DNA of 64,000 nucleotides. Source: an uncultured bacterium (GTDB taxonomy: Bacteria; Patescibacteriota; Minisyncoccia; Moranbacterales; UBA2206). Within the stretch, counting starts at the first letter, position 1, and the number at the start of each line of letters is the position of its first letter. The position numbers and the translations under genes are program-made. The notes beneath the pieces are model-generated. The model did no database searches, had not been told where the DNA came from, and worked only from the letters and a program-made list of their open reading frames with translations. The stretch lies in the NCBI GenBank assembly GCA_903937035.1, contig CAIZXS010000012.1, positions 18,314-82,313 of the forward strand, in the 5' to 3' direction. Positions 1,217 through 51,656 of this stretch are shown one piece after another.

Positions 1217-1229
1217 AATTATTAAATTC

Positions 1230-1352
1230 ATCCCCCACCACTTTTTTACTCGCATTTACAATGCGGATAGGGGCTAGGTTTCAGGAATATTTATCACATG
1301 CACCGATTGTAATTGTGAATTAAAGTCCAAAAGTAAAAAAGTGGTGGGGGAT
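1230..1352 (+). promoter_or_regulatory. Long-range perfect 21-nt inverted repeat in the lexA 5' leader; right arm contains the SD (GGGGGA)
   Basis: atcccccaccacttttttact (1230-1250) and agtaaaaaagtggtgggggat (1332-1352) are exact reverse complements about 80 nt apart. The ATG is at 1360. Confidence 0.6.
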
Positions 1353-1359
1353 AAAAAAT

Positions 1360-7610: not shown

Positions 7611-7721
7611 TTCCAGAACTTACGCCTTTGTTGAAAAGTTTTCAGCTATAGAATCAGCTTTTACTTGTTGGCGAAAATATGGTATTATTTTAGTATGCTT
7701 TCGGTTTAAAATGACTATATT

Positions 7722-10700
7722 TTGCGGATGAGAAAAATAAAAAAAACAAGAAAAATAGCTCTTAGGTTGAGAAGAATATTTTTCAAAATCAGGCAATTTA
7801 AGCTCAGACTTTTTTGGGTTGTTTTTTCGGCGGGCGCGAAGAGTTTGCCAGGGCGTTTTTGTGCGGGAATGAAAAAAATTCCCGGGACGATGGCAAATTT
7901 ACCAAGAAATATAAGAAATTTAAAATGGGTAAATATTAAGACTTTTTCTCGCAGAAATTATCCCTTGCTCTTGGCGATTGTGTTTTTGACCCCGGCTTTT
8001 ATTTTACTTTTCCTTTTTGTTAATTCTCGCATTCACAAGCAAACGACTCAAGCGGCGCCGTTTACAGGCGCAGTGAGAGTTTCCAAAGAGAACACCACTC
8101 TTTCGACCGCGGGAGGATGGCTCAAATCAATGGCTTTCTCCGGAGATGGAATCAATGGGGATGGTGATTATTTTCAGCCCATCCATCCTGGAGCCAGAGC
8201 GACCACTGAAGGCGCAGCAGGAACGTTGGCCGTGGGAGAGGTGGTGATGCCAACGATCACAGCTAATGCTTATGATGCGGCTGGGGCGGTGTTTATTCCT
8301 TGGAAGCCAAATACTAATGGAAATTTTTATGGCGTGACCTTGGCAGTGGCGAATCTCAATACTACTGCGGCTAACTTAAATGTAGTGGTGGAACTTTTGC
8401 GTTTTCCAACAGCATCCTATACTGGCACCCCTCCGACTGTTGTCTGGTCTAACTACGTTGCTTGCTCGGCAGTGAATACTTGTGTTTATGCCGCCGATAC
8501 AGTGATTGAAAGAACACAAGTGATGCGTTTTGATCAAAGCATATCCGGCGAAGCGGCCTATCCGGGGCAATACGGAATCCACTATATGGACTTTCGTTTT
8601 GATCCTTTAGCGGTCACGACAACTACGCATTATGGTTTTCGAGTTTATTATAACTCTTTAACGACAGCATCTACTTGGCCCAGGAACGGAGCGTCAAAAC
8701 CAACAGTAAATGCTGCGAATTTTGGTTTAGGAATTACTGATGTGGACACAGCCAACGCCTTGACAGTAACAGTTCCTTTGGCCAATACGACCCAATCGAG
8801 CTATGCAGTGGCAATCAATTCTGCCCCGGCTGTCGGTCAAGCCGCGGCTGCGCGTACTCAAAATGAGCATTGGAGTGGCACTTATTCTGACTCAAGTGGT
8901 AACTGGACGATTGCCGGTTCTGTTTCCGGGGTGCAAACAGCAAAATTGACTTCATCTACCGATGGAGGAACTGGGGTGGCGTGGGTTAATGATGGCGTGA
9001 CAAAGACAACATTGTCAGCTGACGCGACTGCCACTACAAAACTTTGCGTCAGTTCCATTGCTGGTTTTGCAGTCAATCAATATATTGACATCTGGGATGC
9101 GGACACAACTTCAATTCAAAGAATTATTGCTTCCGTGAGTTCTGCTGATGTCGGCTGTTCCAATGGTCCGTCAATTAATGTTACTGCAACTTTGGCAGCG
9201 ACCGATAAATTTACCCTTTCCAAAAATGCGACTGTGGCGCGAGCAATATGGAAATTGAGAATTATCCAAGGAGCGGAAGAAGCCTTCACGGAAAATATGC
9301 CGACAACGACAAAACTTTGCGTGGCCGATGCTTCACGCTTTTCTGTCGAGGCAACTGCCGGATCAAGCAATATTAACATTTGGGACGATAACTCGATCAT
9401 CGCCGCCAGAAGAATCACCACAATTTCATTTGCCGATGCTTCTTGCGCGAGTTTGAATAGTATCACGATTGACACCGCTATTACGGCCGGAACATATACA
9501 ATTGATAAAAACGCCAGAGTGGCGGAAATATCCGCTAATTTTTCTAACAATGGAACCCCGACTGATGGAAATATTTTTCGCTTCACGACTCTTAATATGG
9601 GACAAAATCCCGCCAAAATTGGAAATGGAAACAGTTTTGTTTTGCTGTATGGAAAAACCGCTGCTCCGGCCACTAGTGCGGTTAATTATCCCTGGATTGC
9701 TAACCAGCGGCATGCTTTTTTTGTGGCCTATGGTGATGCGGATACGACGGCGCCAGCTGATGGTGATATGGCGATTATCGGCGGTGGTGCGGCTGATCCT
9801 GACTCAGGTGATTCAGTCAATCTTTCCAATGATTTGGTTTTGGGAAATATTTCTCCACATACGGTTATGGTGGATAAAAATTTCGACATGCCAATGGCCT
9901 ATACAGGAGCGACCGGGGGAGGCGTGGGAAGTGGATTGACTACGCCAGCCACCGCTTCCTATGGTGGATCCGGTTTTGTTTCGATGCTAATCTCGACCAG
10001 GGCCAAGCTGGCTGTTTCCGATGCTATCAATCAGCGCTATCGACTTACTGCACCAGGAAGGATATTGCTATCTTCCGGTGCGTCTTTAGAATTGGGTTCG
10101 TCCGTCGATCCTTTGCTAAAAACAACAACAGTAGACTTATATCAGGATTCTGTCGGTCCATTAGTATCAACTGTGTTAACTTCTGACTCAACAACCAACA
10201 CCTATATTGACATGGCTTCCACTGCCGGGTTCTATATTGGAGATGTAGTAATGATTAAAGATAACAACAGTGTTCCGACAACAAGAATCATTGCGGCAGT
10301 CACTTCTTCCACTCGATTGACTTTCACGGCGGCGATGGTGGCCGGATACACCGTTGCTCAAGGTGCGACGGTTTCTCGCGGACCAAACACTGATGTGCCA
10401 ACCGGAGCAGACAGAAGAAGTTTCATCTATAGTGCCAGGGCTCAAGCAGCTCGAGTGAATATGTACTCTCAAGGGGCAGATGATTATCGGACGCCGCGGG
10501 CTGACTTAGCAGTGGATATCGATGGGAACATTGATACGGGCTATCTTGGAGCGCAACAAACGGCAGCCGGGAATGTTTGGATGGACGCCGCGGGGAGTTT
10601 GGCAGGCGATTGGTCGGCACTTGATCCACTTTCCGTCGCGCAAGGAAATTCCTATGCGGTCAATGATAATGATTCATCAATCGGCATGGGAGCCAATGAT

Positions 10701-26012: not shown

Positions 26013-26152
26013 TGTCATCCTGAGCGTAGTCGAAGGATCTGCTTGGGATAACTGCAAGCTTTACCATAAATCATAAAGCCTGTGATAATGGAAGGCAGAT
26101 CCTTCGACTTCATAAATTTTCTATTGAAAATTTATTCCGCTCAGGATGACAA
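26013..26152. repeat. MITE-like palindromic element (140 bp) with TIRs TGTCATCCTGAGCG / CGCTCAGGATGACA and internal inverted repeat tcgaaggatctgc / gcagatccttcga
   Basis: Perfect 14-bp terminal inverted repeats and a nested 13-bp inverted repeat. It overlaps the ORF-track start codon of the next gene. Confidence 0.7.
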
Positions 26153-40544: not shown

Positions 40545-40640
40545 CGAAACCATGAAACATGTAGCATAAAACATGTAACAGGATAAATTATACATCAAAT
40601 CATGCTTTTGTTACATGCTGCATGTTTTATGTTTCATGAG
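40545..40640. repeat. Imperfect ~30-bp-arm palindrome in tRNA operon spacer (catgaaacatgtagcataaaacatgtaaca ... tgttacatgctgcatgttttatgtttcatg)
   Basis: Arms are near reverse complements with permuted inner 7-mers. Shares the atgaaacatgtaaca motif with two coding regions (7117, 62739). Confidence 0.6.
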
Positions 40641-45713: not shown

Positions 45714-45807
45714 TGTTGCCTAAGTACTGGATTTATTTTTTAGGATGTGCTATTATCTTTTCTAGGTAAATAAATTGGAAAAAGCAGGTATGCTTTGTTT
45801 TGATTTT

Positions 45808-45838
45808 GGCCCCATCGTCTATCGGTTAGGACATCAGG
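45808..45838 (+). pseudogene. 5' half of a tRNA-Glu copy (acceptor + D-arm + 5' anticodon stem), truncated
   Basis: ggccccatcgtctatcggttaggacatcagg is identical to the first 31 nt of the complete tRNA-Glu at 45864. Followed by tttttttaccccacaccaattttaat. Confidence 0.7.
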
Positions 45839-45863
45839 TTTTTTTACCCCACACCAATTTTAA

Positions 45864-45935
45864 TGGCCCCATCGTCTATCGGTTAGGACATCAGGTTTTC
45901 ATCCTGAAAAGAGGGGTCCGACTCCCCTTGGGGCT
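45864..45935 (+). tRNA. tRNA-Glu (TTC), complete; T-loop TCCGACT (C at position 54)
   Basis: Acceptor GGCCCCA/TGGGGCT, D-arm GTCT ATCGGTTA GGAC, anticodon stem TCAGG/CCTGA with loop TTTTCAT, T-arm AGGGG TCCGACT CCCCT. Confidence 0.8.
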
Positions 45936-45961
45936 ACAGGCCCAAAATTGGTGTGGGGCAA

Positions 45962-45996
45962 GTCCTGAAAAGAGGGGTTCGACTCCCCTTGGGGCT
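45962..45996 (+). pseudogene. 3' half of a tRNA-Glu copy (3' anticodon stem, variable loop, canonical T-arm TTCGACT, acceptor 3' strand)
   Basis: tcctgaaaagaggggttcgactccccttggggcta matches the tRNA-Glu 3' half except T-loop TTCGA vs TCCGA. Preceded by caggcccaaaattggtgtggggcaag, the inverse of the upstream CCCCACACCAA motif. Confidence 0.7.
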
Positions 45997-46000
45997 ACAT

Positions 46001-46606
46001 ATGGAACAGCTTGGTCAAAACATCTTTCAATTTTTGCATCAGTATGGCTATTGGTTGATGGTACCACTGATGATTATTGAGGGTCCGGTGGTAACAGTAA
46101 TTGCCGCGATGCTGGCATCCCTTGGCGCTTTTAATGTTTTTTTAGTTTTACTTTTTTCAATTCTCGGAGACATTATTGGAGATATCGCGCTCTATGGTTT
46201 GGGCTATCGATTTGGCATGGGGTTTGTCCGGCATGTTGGGAAGTATATGGGCATCACGGAGAAACTGGTATTGCGGATGCAGAAATATTTCAAAAAGCAT
46301 GGAGGAAAAACAATTTTTGCCGTTAAATCGACAACGGGACTTTGTTGGGCTACTTTCACGGCCGCCGGAATCGTCAAAATGGATTTCAAAAAATTTCTGA
46401 AAAATTCTTTCTATGGTGGTATTGTTTGGAGTGGATTTTTGGTTGCAATGGGTTATTTTTATGGCTACCTTTGGCGCGAAATAAAACAATACATCCAGTG
46501 GATTGGCTGGGCAATTTTTGCTGTGGCAGCTGCCTCTATCGTCGTAGTTACGCTTTATAAGAATCTCCAGGCAAAGAAGCTTCTACGGGAAGGACATGAA
46601 AAATAA
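46001..46606 (+). CDS. DedA/TVP38 family membrane protein
   Basis: 'YGYWLMVPLMIIEGPVVTVIAAML...' with multiple TM segments. The ORF-track start at 45953 overlaps the tRNA fragment; MEQLGQ (46001) is preferred. Confidence 0.7.
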   Translation: MEQLGQNIFQFLHQYGYWLMVPLMIIEGPVVTVIAAMLASLGAFNVFLVLLFSILGDIIGDIALYGLGYRFGMGFVRHVGKYMGITEKLVLRMQKYFKKHGGKTIFAVKSTTGLCWATFTAAGIVKMDFKKFLKNSFYGGIVWSGFLVAMGYFYGYLWREIKQYIQWIGWAIFAVAAASIVVVTLYKNLQAKKLLREGHEK

Positions 46607-51532: not shown

Positions 51533-51536
51533 TTGT

Positions 51537-51551
51537 GCGCTTAGCAGGAAT
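51537..51551. repeat. 15-nt partial duplicate of the tRNA-Arg 3' acceptor/T-arm region (gcgcttagcaggaat), separated from the tRNA by ttcaccccacaccaaattgtatgg
   Basis: Matches cttagcaggaat of the adjacent tRNA at 51588-51599 (as read on + strand). Confidence 0.55.
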
Positions 51552-51583
51552 TTCACCCCACACCAAATTGTATGGGATATTTG

Positions 51584-51656
51584 TGTCCTTAGCAGGAATC
51601 GAACCTGCGACCTTCTGGACCGCAACCAGACGCTCTATCCACTGAGCTATAAGGAC
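51584..51656 (-). tRNA. tRNA-Arg (anticodon GCG as read)
   Basis: Acceptor GTCCTTA/TAAGGAC, D-arm GCTC AGTGGATA GAGC, anticodon stem TCTGG/CCAGA with loop TTGCGGT, T-arm GCAGG TTCGATT CCTGC. Confidence 0.75.

What the first reader, a model, noticed from the sequence alone, without database searches (positions are those of the whole stretch)
45808..45996. tRNA-Glu nested inside a split second tRNA-Glu copy, bounded by a CCCCACACCAATTTT / AAAATTGGTGTGGGG inverted repeat
The sequence reads, in order:
- 5' half of tRNA-Glu (31 nt, through the 5' anticodon stem);
- tttttttaccccacaccaattttaat;
- a complete tRNA-Glu;
- caggcccaaaattggtgtggggcaag;
- 3' half of tRNA-Glu (from the 3' anticodon stem to the acceptor end).

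The outer halves break within the anticodon loop, and the inner gene is flanked by a 15-bp inverted repeat.

The outer 3' half carries the canonical T-loop TTCGA. The complete inner gene has TCCGA (C54).

This is not a clean intron: joining the halves does not recreate a 7-nt loop. It is the footprint expected if a unit [IR-tRNA-IR] inserted into, or recombined with, a resident tRNA-Glu at the anticodon loop, or of integrase-type site-specific recombination at a tRNA gene.
Basis: seen in the sequence. Interest (0 to 1): 0.7.

Follow-up and report, generated by a model that had tools for sequence, protein, structure and literature searches.

The report
tRNA gene nested inside broken tRNA
In this Moranbacteria (CPR) genome the tRNA-Glu gene is split in its anticodon loop by a small palindromic mobile element that carries a complete replacement tRNA-Glu, and the same "tRNA inside a palindrome inside the same tRNA" design recurs for at least six tRNA types in related bacteria.

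Summary
The 192-nt locus is identical in at least 6 independent assemblies. It consists of an outer 5' part (45808-45842, identical to the inner gene through U35), a 15-bp perfect inverted repeat, a complete inner tRNA-Glu(UUC) (45865-45936) and an outer 3' part (45963-45997).

Relatives carry one uninterrupted tRNA-Glu between the same promoter/leader and dedA, so the outer halves are the old resident gene.

The inverted repeat is the pair of arms of a repeat family (here "PE") found in over 120 metagenome contigs, including Moranbacteria, Wolfebacteria and Parcubacteria. The family shows:
- conserved ends TWNAC|CCCCACACCAA...TTGGTGTGGGG|GTNWA;
- 5-7-nt flanking direct repeats;
- several copies per contig with shared interiors;
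- in-frame insertions in ORFs.

Six of 122 PEs carry a tRNA. Each lies inside a remnant of a tRNA: demonstrably the same type for Glu, Thr and Pro, a decayed apparently Arg-like remnant for L138, and undetermined for the two Val cases. No empty PE lies in a tRNA.

The window holds a second, decayed case at tRNA-Arg next to recG.

Best reading: a self-complementing insertion, with the inner gene functional and the outer a relic. It is not an intron or an integrase footprint. How the cognate tRNA reaches the palindrome apex is unresolved.

The parts
45726..45807 (+). Promoter-like block (ACTGGATTTATTTT ... TGCTATTATC) and leader hairpin (AAAAAGCAGGTATGCTTT) that drive the locus.
   Evidence: Conserved with L012, L014 and L018, where it directly precedes the tRNA. 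The function is inferred from conservation and an extended -10-like TGnTATTAT. The simple promoter scan did not call it.
45808..45842 (+). Outer tRNA-Glu 5' part, positions 1-35 (acceptor 5' strand, D arm, anticodon stem 5' strand, U32-U35).
   Evidence: 35/35 identical to the inner gene. It lies at the position of the single tRNA in L014, L018 and L091.
45843..45846 (+). Left junction TTTA.
   Evidence: Variable between genomes: TTCA in L012, TA in L201.
45847..45861 (+). Left arm of the palindromic element (CCCCACACCAATTTT).
   Evidence: It is a family arm in over 120 contigs.
45862..45864 (+). Linker AAT (5' leader of the inner tRNA).
   Evidence: Differs in L012 (TTT).
45865..45936 (+). 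Inner complete tRNA-Glu(UUC), predicted to be the functional gene.
   Evidence: ARAGORN. Rfam RF00005, 55 bits. 72/72 identical in L012. L201 has a diverged version with compensatory stem changes.
45937..45943 (+). Linker CAGGCCC (3' trailer of the inner tRNA).
   Evidence: Differs in L012 (C-GGTCA).
45944..45958 (+). Right arm of the palindromic element (AAAATTGGTGTGGGG).
45959..45962 (+). Right junction CAAG.
   Evidence: Same in L012, CGAG in L201. GCAAG is a common right flank of family members.
45963..45997 (+). Outer tRNA-Glu 3' part, positions 38-73. Its acceptor 3' strand (TTGGGGCT) lies 6 nt before the dedA ATG and resembles a Shine-Dalgarno site.
   Evidence: 34/35 identical to the inner gene. 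The same abutment to dedA occurs in relatives, with GAGG in the same place.
46001..46606 (+). dedA (VTT domain) gene, apparently co-transcribed, starting 3 nt after the outer discriminator base.
51583..51656 (-). tRNA-Arg(GCG): the second, decayed example of the same phenomenon in the window.
51556..51582 (-). Trailer of tRNA-Arg containing the family arm TTGGTGTGGGG (51556-51566), with a degenerate partner CCCATAC.
51534..51551 (-). Remnant of an older tRNA-Arg 3' end (ATTCCTGCTAAGCGCACA, from the T loop to the discriminator). It directly precedes the recG ATG (51532-51530).
   Evidence: The junction GGGG-TGAA-ATTCC is the same as in the nested tRNA-Pro of L168.
1227..1355 (.). Related palindromic element with variant arms (ATCCCCCACCACTTTTTTAC / GTAAAAAAGTGGTGGGGGAT) and an 81-nt interior, upstream of a LexA-like gene.

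Best explanation
The locus is a resident tRNA-Glu gene broken in its anticodon loop, after U35. The insert is a copy of a small palindromic repeat element ('PE') that is common in Patescibacteria, and this copy carries a complete tRNA-Glu at its centre.

How it works (inferred, not shown): transcription starts at the old promoter and gives one precursor in which the two PE arms pair into a 15-bp stalk. RNase P and RNase Z, possibly helped by RNase III cutting the stalk, release the inner tRNA, which is the working tRNA-Glu(UUC). The outer halves cannot decode because C36 and A37 are gone and the loop is replaced by the stalk. They are a relic. They still supply the promoter-proximal 5' end and the sequence just upstream of dedA, where the acceptor 3' strand acts as a Shine-Dalgarno-like site.

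PE insertions in tRNA genes are seen only when the PE carries a tRNA. Where the outer remnant can be typed (Glu, Thr, Pro, Arg) it is the same tRNA. This suggests that an insertion survives only when it complements the gene it destroys.

Steps shown: the anatomy, the ancestral single-gene state, PE being a dispersed repeat family, and the recurrence of nesting.
Steps inferred: RNA processing, which copy functions, and how the tRNA came to sit at the PE apex.
For: 1. Ancestral state. L014, L018 and L091 have one tRNA-Glu with the same upstream leader and the dedA ATG 3 nt downstream.

2. Same nested module elsewhere. L012 (DedA 86% identical) carries it. L201 has the same arms and a related inner tRNA-Glu(CUC) inside a quite different outer tRNA-Glu.

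3. PE is a repeat family.
- Conserved ends are TWNAC|...|GTNWA.
- Flanking direct repeats of 5 nt or more occur in 26/120 elements against 5.4 expected. In pilin genes the motif G-F-T-L is restored by removing the PE plus one GTTTAC.
- Several copies per contig share their interiors, for example 81/81 in L190.

4. PEs are not spliced out. Eighteen lie in open frames and 15/18 have lengths divisible by 3 (p = 1.9e-5).

5. tRNA cargo. Six of 122 PEs carry a tRNA: Val-UAC, Val-CAC, Arg-CCG, Pro-GGG, Thr-CGU and Glu-CUC. Each is flanked by tRNA fragments. Deleting the PE in silico reconstitutes a tRNA only for PEs that carry a tRNA.

6. Second case in the window, at tRNA-Arg/recG.

7. The inner gene keeps tRNA structure through compensatory changes in L201. 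Several outer copies are decayed: L200 and L138, and also L168 and the window tRNA-Arg locus, where the outer 5' part is internally deleted or absent.

8. Hosts named: Moraniibacteriota, Wolfebacteria and Parcubacteria group.
Against: - No target-site duplication is visible at this locus (TTTA versus CAAG).
- No autonomous element or transposase with these ends was found.
- The mechanism that places the cognate tRNA at the PE apex is unknown.
- Between the window and L012, neutral sites are near saturation (4-fold sites 44% identical). Yet the outer halves (70 nt; 72 nt counting the flanking bases) and the arms (30 nt) show no change, while about 18 linker positions show 5 substitutions and 1 indel. 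A plain relic should have decayed. This needs gene conversion from the inner copy, recent transfer of the whole module, or selection on the outer body.
- The outer T54 / inner C54 difference is kept in both genomes, which argues against free gene conversion.
- No expression data are available.
Confidence: 0.65

Rival explanations
1. The whole nested structure is a selected RNA design. The outer tRNA body acts as a natural 'tRNA scaffold' or processing frame. Its acceptor and T arms recruit RNase P and RNase Z to trim the precursor and to free a nearly leaderless dedA mRNA. The PE stalk presents the inner tRNA. Under this reading the outer halves and arms are kept by purifying selection.
For: - Zero changes in the outer halves and arms against about 30% change in the linkers between the window and L012, while 4-fold sites are only 44% identical.
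- The T54/C54 difference is retained in both genomes.
- The outer bodies are perfectly formed in the window, L012, L201 and L154. In L115 and L154 the PE stalk replaces the anticodon arm exactly, positions 27-43.
- A tRNA 3' piece is kept next to the dedA ATG in every rearranged relative.
Against: - Outer copies are decayed in L200, L138, L168 and at the window's tRNA-Arg.
- L012 has 31 extra nt between the conserved leader and the outer G1. This suggests the module moved as a unit, so it may be younger than the species split.
- Close relatives (L011 at 95%, L091) do without the module.
- The retention next to dedA is explained by the Shine-Dalgarno-like GAGG/GGGG alone.
Confidence: 0.2
2. It is the footprint of integrase-type site-specific recombination. 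A small element carrying a tRNA copy integrated at the anticodon loop, and the element body was later deleted.
For: - The anticodon loop and the T loop are classic integration sublocations in tRNA genes (established knowledge, recalled from Williams 2002).
- 3' partial tRNA copies lie next to about 190-nt inserts in L011, L013, L094 and L096.
Against: - The 5' half is duplicated as well.
- Only 22-26 nt separate the copies.
- There is no integrase gene.
- The left and right junctions share no core sequence.
- The arms belong to a dispersed family found in ORFs and intergenic DNA with target-site-duplication-like repeats.
Confidence: 0.05
3. The 120-nt insert is an intron (archaeal-type BHB, group I at 35/36, or a new type). 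It is spliced out so that both an outer and an inner tRNA-Glu are made.
For: - The break is after U35, the site of group I introns in Patescibacteria tRNA-Asn and tRNA-Asp (PMC13011429).
- The insert ends in G, and a C-A follows the right arm.
Against: - No group I core and no Rfam match. At 120 nt the insert is too short.
- The junction fold is 5 bp / 2x1 loop / 3 bp / 3x1 loop / 15 bp, not bulge-helix-bulge.
- The host is bacterial.
- Joining the halves gives a 9-13-nt loop or loses C36 and A37.
- PEs in ORFs are constrained to be in frame, so they are not removed from RNA.
- In L115 and L154 nothing is left of the outer anticodon arm.
Confidence: 0.03
4. The structure is an assembly or chimera artefact in a repeat-rich region.
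For: Several short contigs end near the locus.
Against: - The 192-nt sequence is identical in at least 6 assemblies from different samples and assemblers.
- It is present in a different species, L012, and in analogous form in L201.
Confidence: 0.01

Closest known systems
MITEs and other bacterial palindromic repeat elements, especially Rickettsia palindromic elements (RPE; PMC1779305)
   Same: Short (about 60-120 nt), non-coding and hairpin-forming, with conserved terminal inverted repeats. Dispersed in many copies. Found in intergenic DNA and, in frame, inside protein-coding genes.
   Different: The arms (TWNAC CCCCACACCAA) are unrelated to those of RPE. The hosts are Patescibacteria. Some copies carry a complete tRNA at the hairpin apex and sit inside tRNA genes. 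I know of no RPE, Correia element or MITE with this feature.
Integrative elements that target tRNA genes and restore the gene with their own tRNA segment (recalled from Williams 2002)
   Same: The insertion is in the anticodon loop or T loop of a tRNA gene. The insert brings the sequence needed to keep a functional tRNA. A displaced tRNA fragment is left at the border.
   Different: There is no integrase. The insert is about 120 nt. It brings a whole tRNA rather than a 3' segment. Both halves of the old gene remain. The junctions lack a common core.
Group I introns at position 35/36 of Patescibacteria tRNA genes (PMC13011429)
   Same: Same phylum, and the same position in the anticodon loop (after nucleotide 35).
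   Different: No ribozyme core and no Rfam match. The exons do not rejoin to a normal loop. The insert contains a tRNA.
Archaeal disrupted tRNA genes: BHB introns, split and permuted tRNAs, and the box C/D RNA inside the tRNA-Trp intron (recalled from memory)
   Same: A functional RNA lies inside a tRNA gene, and a long helix forms at the break point.
   Different: The host is bacterial. There is no BHB motif, and the outer halves cannot form an anticodon loop. Here the inner RNA, not the outer, is the likely product.
REP / REPIN elements mobilised by RAYT (Y1 transposases; PMC8049555, PMC3733652)
   Same: Hairpin repeats of similar size. A RAYT-like gene flanked by CCCCAC-N7-GTGGGG hairpins lies 1.3 kb from a tRNA-carrying PE in L154.
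   Different: There is no GTAG or CGTC tag. PE arms are not themselves palindromes. PEs have target-site-duplication-like direct repeats. RAYT-like ORFs occur in only 2 of 120 PE loci, and in L124 the gene has a different REP.
Engineered 'tRNA scaffold' for RNA expression (recalled from Ponchon and Dardel 2007)
   Same: A cargo RNA on a stem replaces or extends the anticodon arm of an otherwise intact tRNA body. L115 and L154 show this exactly.
   Different: This is natural rather than engineered. The cargo is itself a tRNA, and no evidence shows that the scaffold is used.

Membership tests
MITE-like / palindromic repeat element | Terminal inverted repeats | tested here: met
   15-bp perfect arms at the locus. 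The family consensus is TWNAC CCCCACACCAA at both ends.
MITE-like / palindromic repeat element | Many dispersed copies, with related interiors within a genome | tested here: met
   At least 120 contigs. Up to 4 copies per contig. Interiors are shared within contigs: L190 81/81, and also L188, L159, L174 and L175.
MITE-like / palindromic repeat element | Target-site duplication | tested here: inconclusive
   Across the family, direct repeats of 5 nt or more occur in 26/120 elements against 5.4 expected, and the pilin GFTL motif is restored. At this locus no duplication is visible (TTTA / CAAG).
MITE-like / palindromic repeat element | A cognate autonomous element or transposase with the same ends | tested here: not met
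   No arm pairs 0.13-4 kb apart flanking an ORF were found in 762 kb of PE loci. The whole collection could not be scanned for this.
RPE-like in-frame palindromic insertions | In-frame, stop-free insertions in protein-coding genes | tested here: met
   18 PEs lie in open frames and 15/18 have lengths divisible by 3, p = 1.9e-5.
Group I intron in tRNA | Catalytic core (P3-P9) detectable by a covariance model | tested here: not met
   The only Rfam match at the locus is tRNA. The insert is 120 nt.
Group I intron in tRNA | Exons join to give a canonical anticodon loop | tested here: not met
   C36 and A37 are absent from the outer copy.
Archaeal BHB intron / split tRNA | Bulge-helix-bulge motif (3-nt bulge, 4-bp helix, 3-nt bulge) at the junctions | tested here: not met
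   The predicted junction is 5 bp, 2x1 loop, 3 bp, 3x1 loop, 15 bp.
Archaeal BHB intron / split tRNA | Host encodes a splicing endonuclease (EndA) | not testable with these tools
   Only 64 kb of the genome is held. The genes present are bacterial (TsaD, RecG).
Integrase-mediated tRNA-targeting island | Integrase gene within the insert | tested here: not met
   The insert is 120 nt and holds only the arms and a tRNA.
Integrase-mediated tRNA-targeting island | Identical core sequence at both junctions, with only the 3' tRNA segment duplicated | tested here: not met
   The junctions are TTTA and CAAG, and both the 5' and 3' halves are duplicated.
REP/REPIN-RAYT | Conserved GTAG/CGTC tag and an associated RAYT gene flanked by the repeat | tested here: inconclusive
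   No tag was found. The RAYT-like ORF in L154 is flanked by CCCCAC-N7-GTGGGG hairpins that resemble only the outer PE stem. L124's RAYT has a different REP.
Functional tRNA (inner gene) | Cloverleaf with conserved elements, maintained by compensatory change | tested here: met
   ARAGORN and Rfam, 55 bits. The L201 homologue has paired changes in the anticodon and T stems.
Functional tRNA (inner gene) | Expression and aminoacylation | not testable with these tools
   No RNA data are available.

The most novel reading that the evidence does not exclude
PE is an undescribed kind of mobile element in Patescibacteria that inserts at the apex of DNA hairpins. The insertion points are just 3' of the central base of the 7-nt anticodon loop (35/36) or of the T loop (57/58).

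Its tRNA-carrying forms would be self-complementing invaders of tRNA genes. They destroy a single-copy essential tRNA gene and replace it at the same time. The retained outer halves then act as homology arms that let the module move between species by recombination.

L201 fits this. It carries a Moranbacteria-like inner gene, and the outer sequence next to the insert looks like the donor's, inside an otherwise foreign tRNA-Glu.

One possible origin of the cognate cargo is repair of a break at the palindrome apex, by copying the intact sister allele through microhomology.
Probability: 0.3. Interest if true: 0.85.

Novelty: new variant of a known kind. Interest (0 to 1): 0.72.

Why it matters
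Patescibacteria have tiny genomes, usually with one gene per tRNA, so a mobile element sitting in such a gene should be lethal.

This locus and its relatives show a recurring way round that: the insert brings a working copy. If confirmed, three things follow.
- It adds a new class to the short list of disrupted tRNA gene architectures (introns, split, permuted), and the first that nests one tRNA in another.
- It defines a widespread repeat family in a phylum where mobile DNA is poorly known.
- It warns annotators that tRNA halves and 'missing' tRNAs in these genomes may be such modules.

It also offers natural examples of cargo RNA carried in a tRNA scaffold.

Tried and rejected
- Assembly artefact: rejected, because the locus is identical in at least 6 assemblies.
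- Tandem tRNA-Glu array as precursor: none among about 55 orthologous dedA loci.
- Group I or other known RNA family: the only Rfam match at the locus is tRNA. No family matched the PE or the about 190-nt neighbouring elements.
- BHB intron: the fold does not show it.
- PE interiors as decayed tRNAs: relaxed ARAGORN does no better than shuffled controls. Only 6 of 71 long elements hold a tRNA.
- PE interiors as filler copied from nearby DNA: BLAST of interiors against their own contigs finds mainly other PE copies, plus a few short matches of 15-27 nt that were not followed up.
- Outer tRNAs around empty PEs: none.
- Autonomous element with the same ends: none in the loci held. The window pair 51556/53355 is a chance match inside a gene.
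- RAYT link: weak.
- Finding more modules through spurious ORFs translated across the module: only the same strain turned up.
- Phage and plasmid collections: no PE.
- Literature: no paper holds the arm sequence in a relevant context or describes CPR MITEs or nested tRNAs.
A one-letter anchor (D) between two gaps solved this.

Full report
**What is there**

Window 45808-45997 reads as follows.

| Coordinates | Content |
|---|---|
| 45808-45842 | Outer tRNA-Glu positions 1-35, 35/35 identical to the inner gene |
| 45843-45846 | Junction TTTA |
| 45847-45861 | Left arm CCCCACACCAATTTT |
| 45862-45864 | Linker AAT |
| 45865-45936 | Complete tRNA-Glu(UUC) |
| 45937-45943 | Linker CAGGCCC |
| 45944-45958 | Right arm AAAATTGGTGTGGGG |
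| 45959-45962 | Junction CAAG |
| 45963-45997 | Outer positions 38-73, 34/35 identical (T54 versus C54) |

- ARAGORN and Rfam call only the inner gene.
- As RNA, the region folds into a cloverleaf carried on a 15-bp stalk inside a second cloverleaf (-81.9 kcal/mol, z = -4.4).
- The arm pair never occurs in shuffled sequence.
- The 192-nt string is identical in at least six assemblies from different samples and assemblers, so it is not an artefact.

**Organism and neighbourhood**

The flanking genes are tsaD, an HSP20 gene, dedA, hydrolase and glycosyltransferase genes and recG. DedA homologues are named Moranbacteria/Moraniibacteriota, which belong to Patescibacteria (CPR). dedA starts 3 nt after the outer discriminator base.

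**Ancestral state**

I fetched about 55 orthologous dedA loci.

- L014, L018 and L091 have a single tRNA-Glu. It sits exactly where the outer halves lie, behind the same conserved promoter-like block and leader hairpin, and it abuts the dedA ATG.
- No tandem array was found.
- The outer halves are therefore the old resident gene, and the 120 nt between them are an insertion.
- L012, a different species (DedA 86% identical), has the same nested module.

**The inverted repeat is a mobile repeat family**

- The same arm follows tRNA-Arg(GCG) in the window.
- A 63-nt 'empty' copy lies at the start of a membrane-protein gene in L017.
It gave 122 elements of 59-119 nt.
- Both ends share the consensus TWNAC|CCCC...GGGG|GTNWA.
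- Flanking direct repeats of 5 nt or more are five times more frequent than in shuffled flank pairs.
- In two pilin genes, removing the element plus one GTTTAC restores the G-F-T-L motif.
- Contigs carry up to four copies, and copies within a contig share their interiors.
- Eighteen elements lie inside open frames, and 15 of those have lengths divisible by three (p = 1.9e-5).

The last point resembles Rickettsia palindromic elements (PMC1779305). It also shows that the elements are not removed from RNA.

Named hosts include Candidatus Wolfebacteria and a Parcubacteria-group bacterium. I found no paper describing these elements and no Rfam family for them.

**Nesting recurs**

Six of the 122 elements contain a tRNA, and all six lie inside remnants of another tRNA.

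| Locus | Inner tRNA | Position in the outer tRNA |
|---|---|---|
| L201 | Glu-CUC | After U35 of a different tRNA-Glu |
| L200 | Thr-CGU | After position 35 of a Thr-like gene |
| L115 | Val-UAC | Stalk replaces the anticodon arm (27-43) of an otherwise intact tRNA body |
| L154 | Val-CAC | Stalk replaces the anticodon arm (27-43) of an otherwise intact tRNA body |
| L168 | Pro-GGG | In the T loop |
| L138 | Arg-CCG | In a decayed remnant |

- The outer remnant is demonstrably the same tRNA type for Glu, Thr and Pro, and apparently Arg-like though heavily decayed in L138. For the two Val cases the outer anticodon is gone, so its type cannot be read.
- The window's tRNA-Arg has the same T-loop junction as L168 (GGGG-TGAA-ATTCC). 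It is followed by an 18-nt remnant of an older tRNA-Arg directly before the recG ATG.
- L165 shows the same design with variant arms.
- Deleting the element in silico reconstitutes a tRNA only for elements that carry a tRNA. No empty element sits in a tRNA gene.

**Interpretation**

The simplest reading is a self-complementing insertion. The palindromic element destroys the resident gene, and the copy at its apex replaces it. Several observations fit this.

- The inner gene keeps its structure through compensatory changes in L201.
- Several outer copies are decayed (L200 and L138; also L168 and the window's tRNA-Arg, where the outer 5' part is internally deleted or absent).
- The in-frame constraint argues against RNA-level removal.

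Processing by RNase P and RNase Z, with the stalk as a possible RNase III site, is inferred from general knowledge and was not tested.

**What does not fit neatly**

- Between the window and L012, 4-fold sites in dedA are only 44% identical. Yet the outer halves, the arms and the inner gene show no change, while about 18 linker positions carry 5 substitutions and 1 indel. A neutral relic should have decayed.
- Three explanations are possible:
  - gene conversion from the inner copy, although the T54/C54 difference persists in both genomes;
  - movement of the whole module between lineages;
  - selection on the outer body.
- Movement between lineages has some support. L012 has 31 extra nt between the conserved leader and the outer G1. 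The closest relative, L011 (95%), lacks the module. The L201 outer anticodon stem looks donor-like.
- Selection on the outer body could act through processing, or through dedA expression. The acceptor 3' strand supplies a GAGG/GGGG 6-7 nt before the ATG in all relatives.
- No target-site duplication is seen at this locus, and no transposase was found. A RAYT-like gene near one module is only a lead.
- How the cognate tRNA comes to lie at the apex is unknown.

**Rejected readings**

Assembly artefact, group I intron, BHB intron, integrase footprint and tandem-array deletion. The evidence for each is in the report's separate section on rival explanations.

**Verdict**

This is a real, conserved and unusual architecture. 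It is explained in outline as a palindromic-element insertion that carries its own replacement tRNA. It is part of a wider and apparently undescribed phenomenon in Patescibacteria.

Noticed in passing
window 51534-51656 (- strand): tRNA-Arg(GCG) is followed by a trailer with the same arm (TTGGTGTGGGG, 51556-51566). Next comes an 18-nt copy of a tRNA-Arg 3' end with a different acceptor strand (AAGCGCA versus AAGGACA), directly before the recG ATG. This is a second, decayed case of the same phenomenon, in the T loop.
   Followed up: partly
window 1227-1355: A palindromic element with related but distinct arms (ATCCCCCACCACTTTTTTAC; 24 nt, 96% complementary, 81 nt between the arms), just upstream of a LexA-like gene (1360-2019).
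   Followed up: partly
L011 2604-2998, L013 2813-2998, L094 2292-2492, L096 2208-2410, L092 about 1830-2010 (inverted): A conserved element of about 190 nt follows tRNA-Glu. It contains GAGTCGGACGGGTATTT ... AAAACCCAGGCTCTGAGG and ends in a copy of the tRNA from the T loop to the 3' end (CGACTCCCCTTGAGGCTAC). L011 has two in tandem. There is no Rfam match. It could be a miniature integrative element or an unknown small RNA.
   Followed up: partly
L034 2670-2812; L033, L037, L050 (- strand, next to tRNA-Glu): A different element of about 170 nt downstream of tRNA-Glu. It begins with the reverse complement of the T arm (GGGGAATCGAACC) and ends with the T-arm 3' strand plus the acceptor 3' strand. 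It shares motifs (GGCAGNAGYGAG ... CAAGGAGTTTTYAGCAGAAAACGACGCG) across genomes.
   Followed up: no
L025 2482-2885; L049 2462-2880 (- strand): A truncated tRNA-Glu 5' part carries two mini-palindromes (TCAGCCAAAGGCTGA, CCACCCTTTGGGTGG) inserted exactly at 35/36. It is followed by an ORF of about 85 aa that looks like a GIY-YIG nuclease by eye (not scanned against Pfam), and then by an intact tRNA-Glu. This is a larger nested arrangement at the same gene.
   Followed up: no
window 45990-46003 and the same place in L014, L018, L091, L011, L013, L094, L096: dedA starts 3 nt after the tRNA discriminator base. The tRNA acceptor 3' strand (TTGAGGCT or TTGGGGCT) supplies a Shine-Dalgarno-like GAGG/GGGG 6-7 nt before the ATG. 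A piece of tRNA 3' end is kept there after every rearrangement.
   Followed up: partly
L016-L062: tRNA-Glu lies next to dedA in many Moranbacteria, but on either strand and at varying distance. Several genomes have a tmRNA gene there instead. The locus is a rearrangement hot spot.
   Followed up: partly
L154 148-837 (- strand), flanks 101-134 and 836-870: A RAYT-like Y1 transposase ORF (Pfam PF01797) is flanked on both sides by the same hairpin, TTTTCA CCCCAC GTCGCAA GTGGGG T. It lies 1.3 kb from the PE that carries tRNA-Val. The hairpin resembles the outer part of the PE stem.
   Followed up: partly
L165 about 7720-7860 (- strand): tRNA-Thr(UGU) is flanked by variant arms CCCCCCCACCTTT / AAAGGTGGGGGGG and followed by a tRNA 3' remnant. 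This is the same nesting design with a different arm family.
   Followed up: no
L207 3444-3562; L209 8063-8175: 'Solo' perfect palindromes of about 27 nt (CCCCACACCAAAAATTTTGGTGTGGGG) occur as direct pairs. The minimal unit of the family may be a bare hairpin.
   Followed up: no
L102, L107, L123, L144, L179, L190, L194, L208, L212: A PE subfamily is embedded in longer conserved flanks (GCGAATTNAC ... GTNAATTCGC, with CTTATG...CATAAG hairpins further out). This suggests a larger structured element. There is no Rfam match.
   Followed up: no
window 26013-26151: A nested inverted repeat: TGTCATCCTGAGCG ... CGCTCAGGATGACA enclosing AGTCGAAGGATCTGC ... GCAGATCCTTCGACT. This is another hairpin element, of a different sequence family.
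   Followed up: no
window 40551-40638: A 30-nt imperfect inverted repeat (CATGAAACATGTAGCATAAAACATGTAACA) lies in the spacer between tRNA-Arg(UCU) and tRNA-Lys in the four-tRNA cluster.
   Followed up: no
L033 501-630 (- strand): Rfam match to LOOT RNA (RF03000, 75 bits) in a Moranbacteria contig.
   Followed up: no
P0122: A called protein fuses the translation of a tRNA-Glu gene to an IS200-like Y1 transposase fragment. An IS200/IS605 element therefore sits directly after a tRNA-Glu in some unnamed organism.
   Followed up: no
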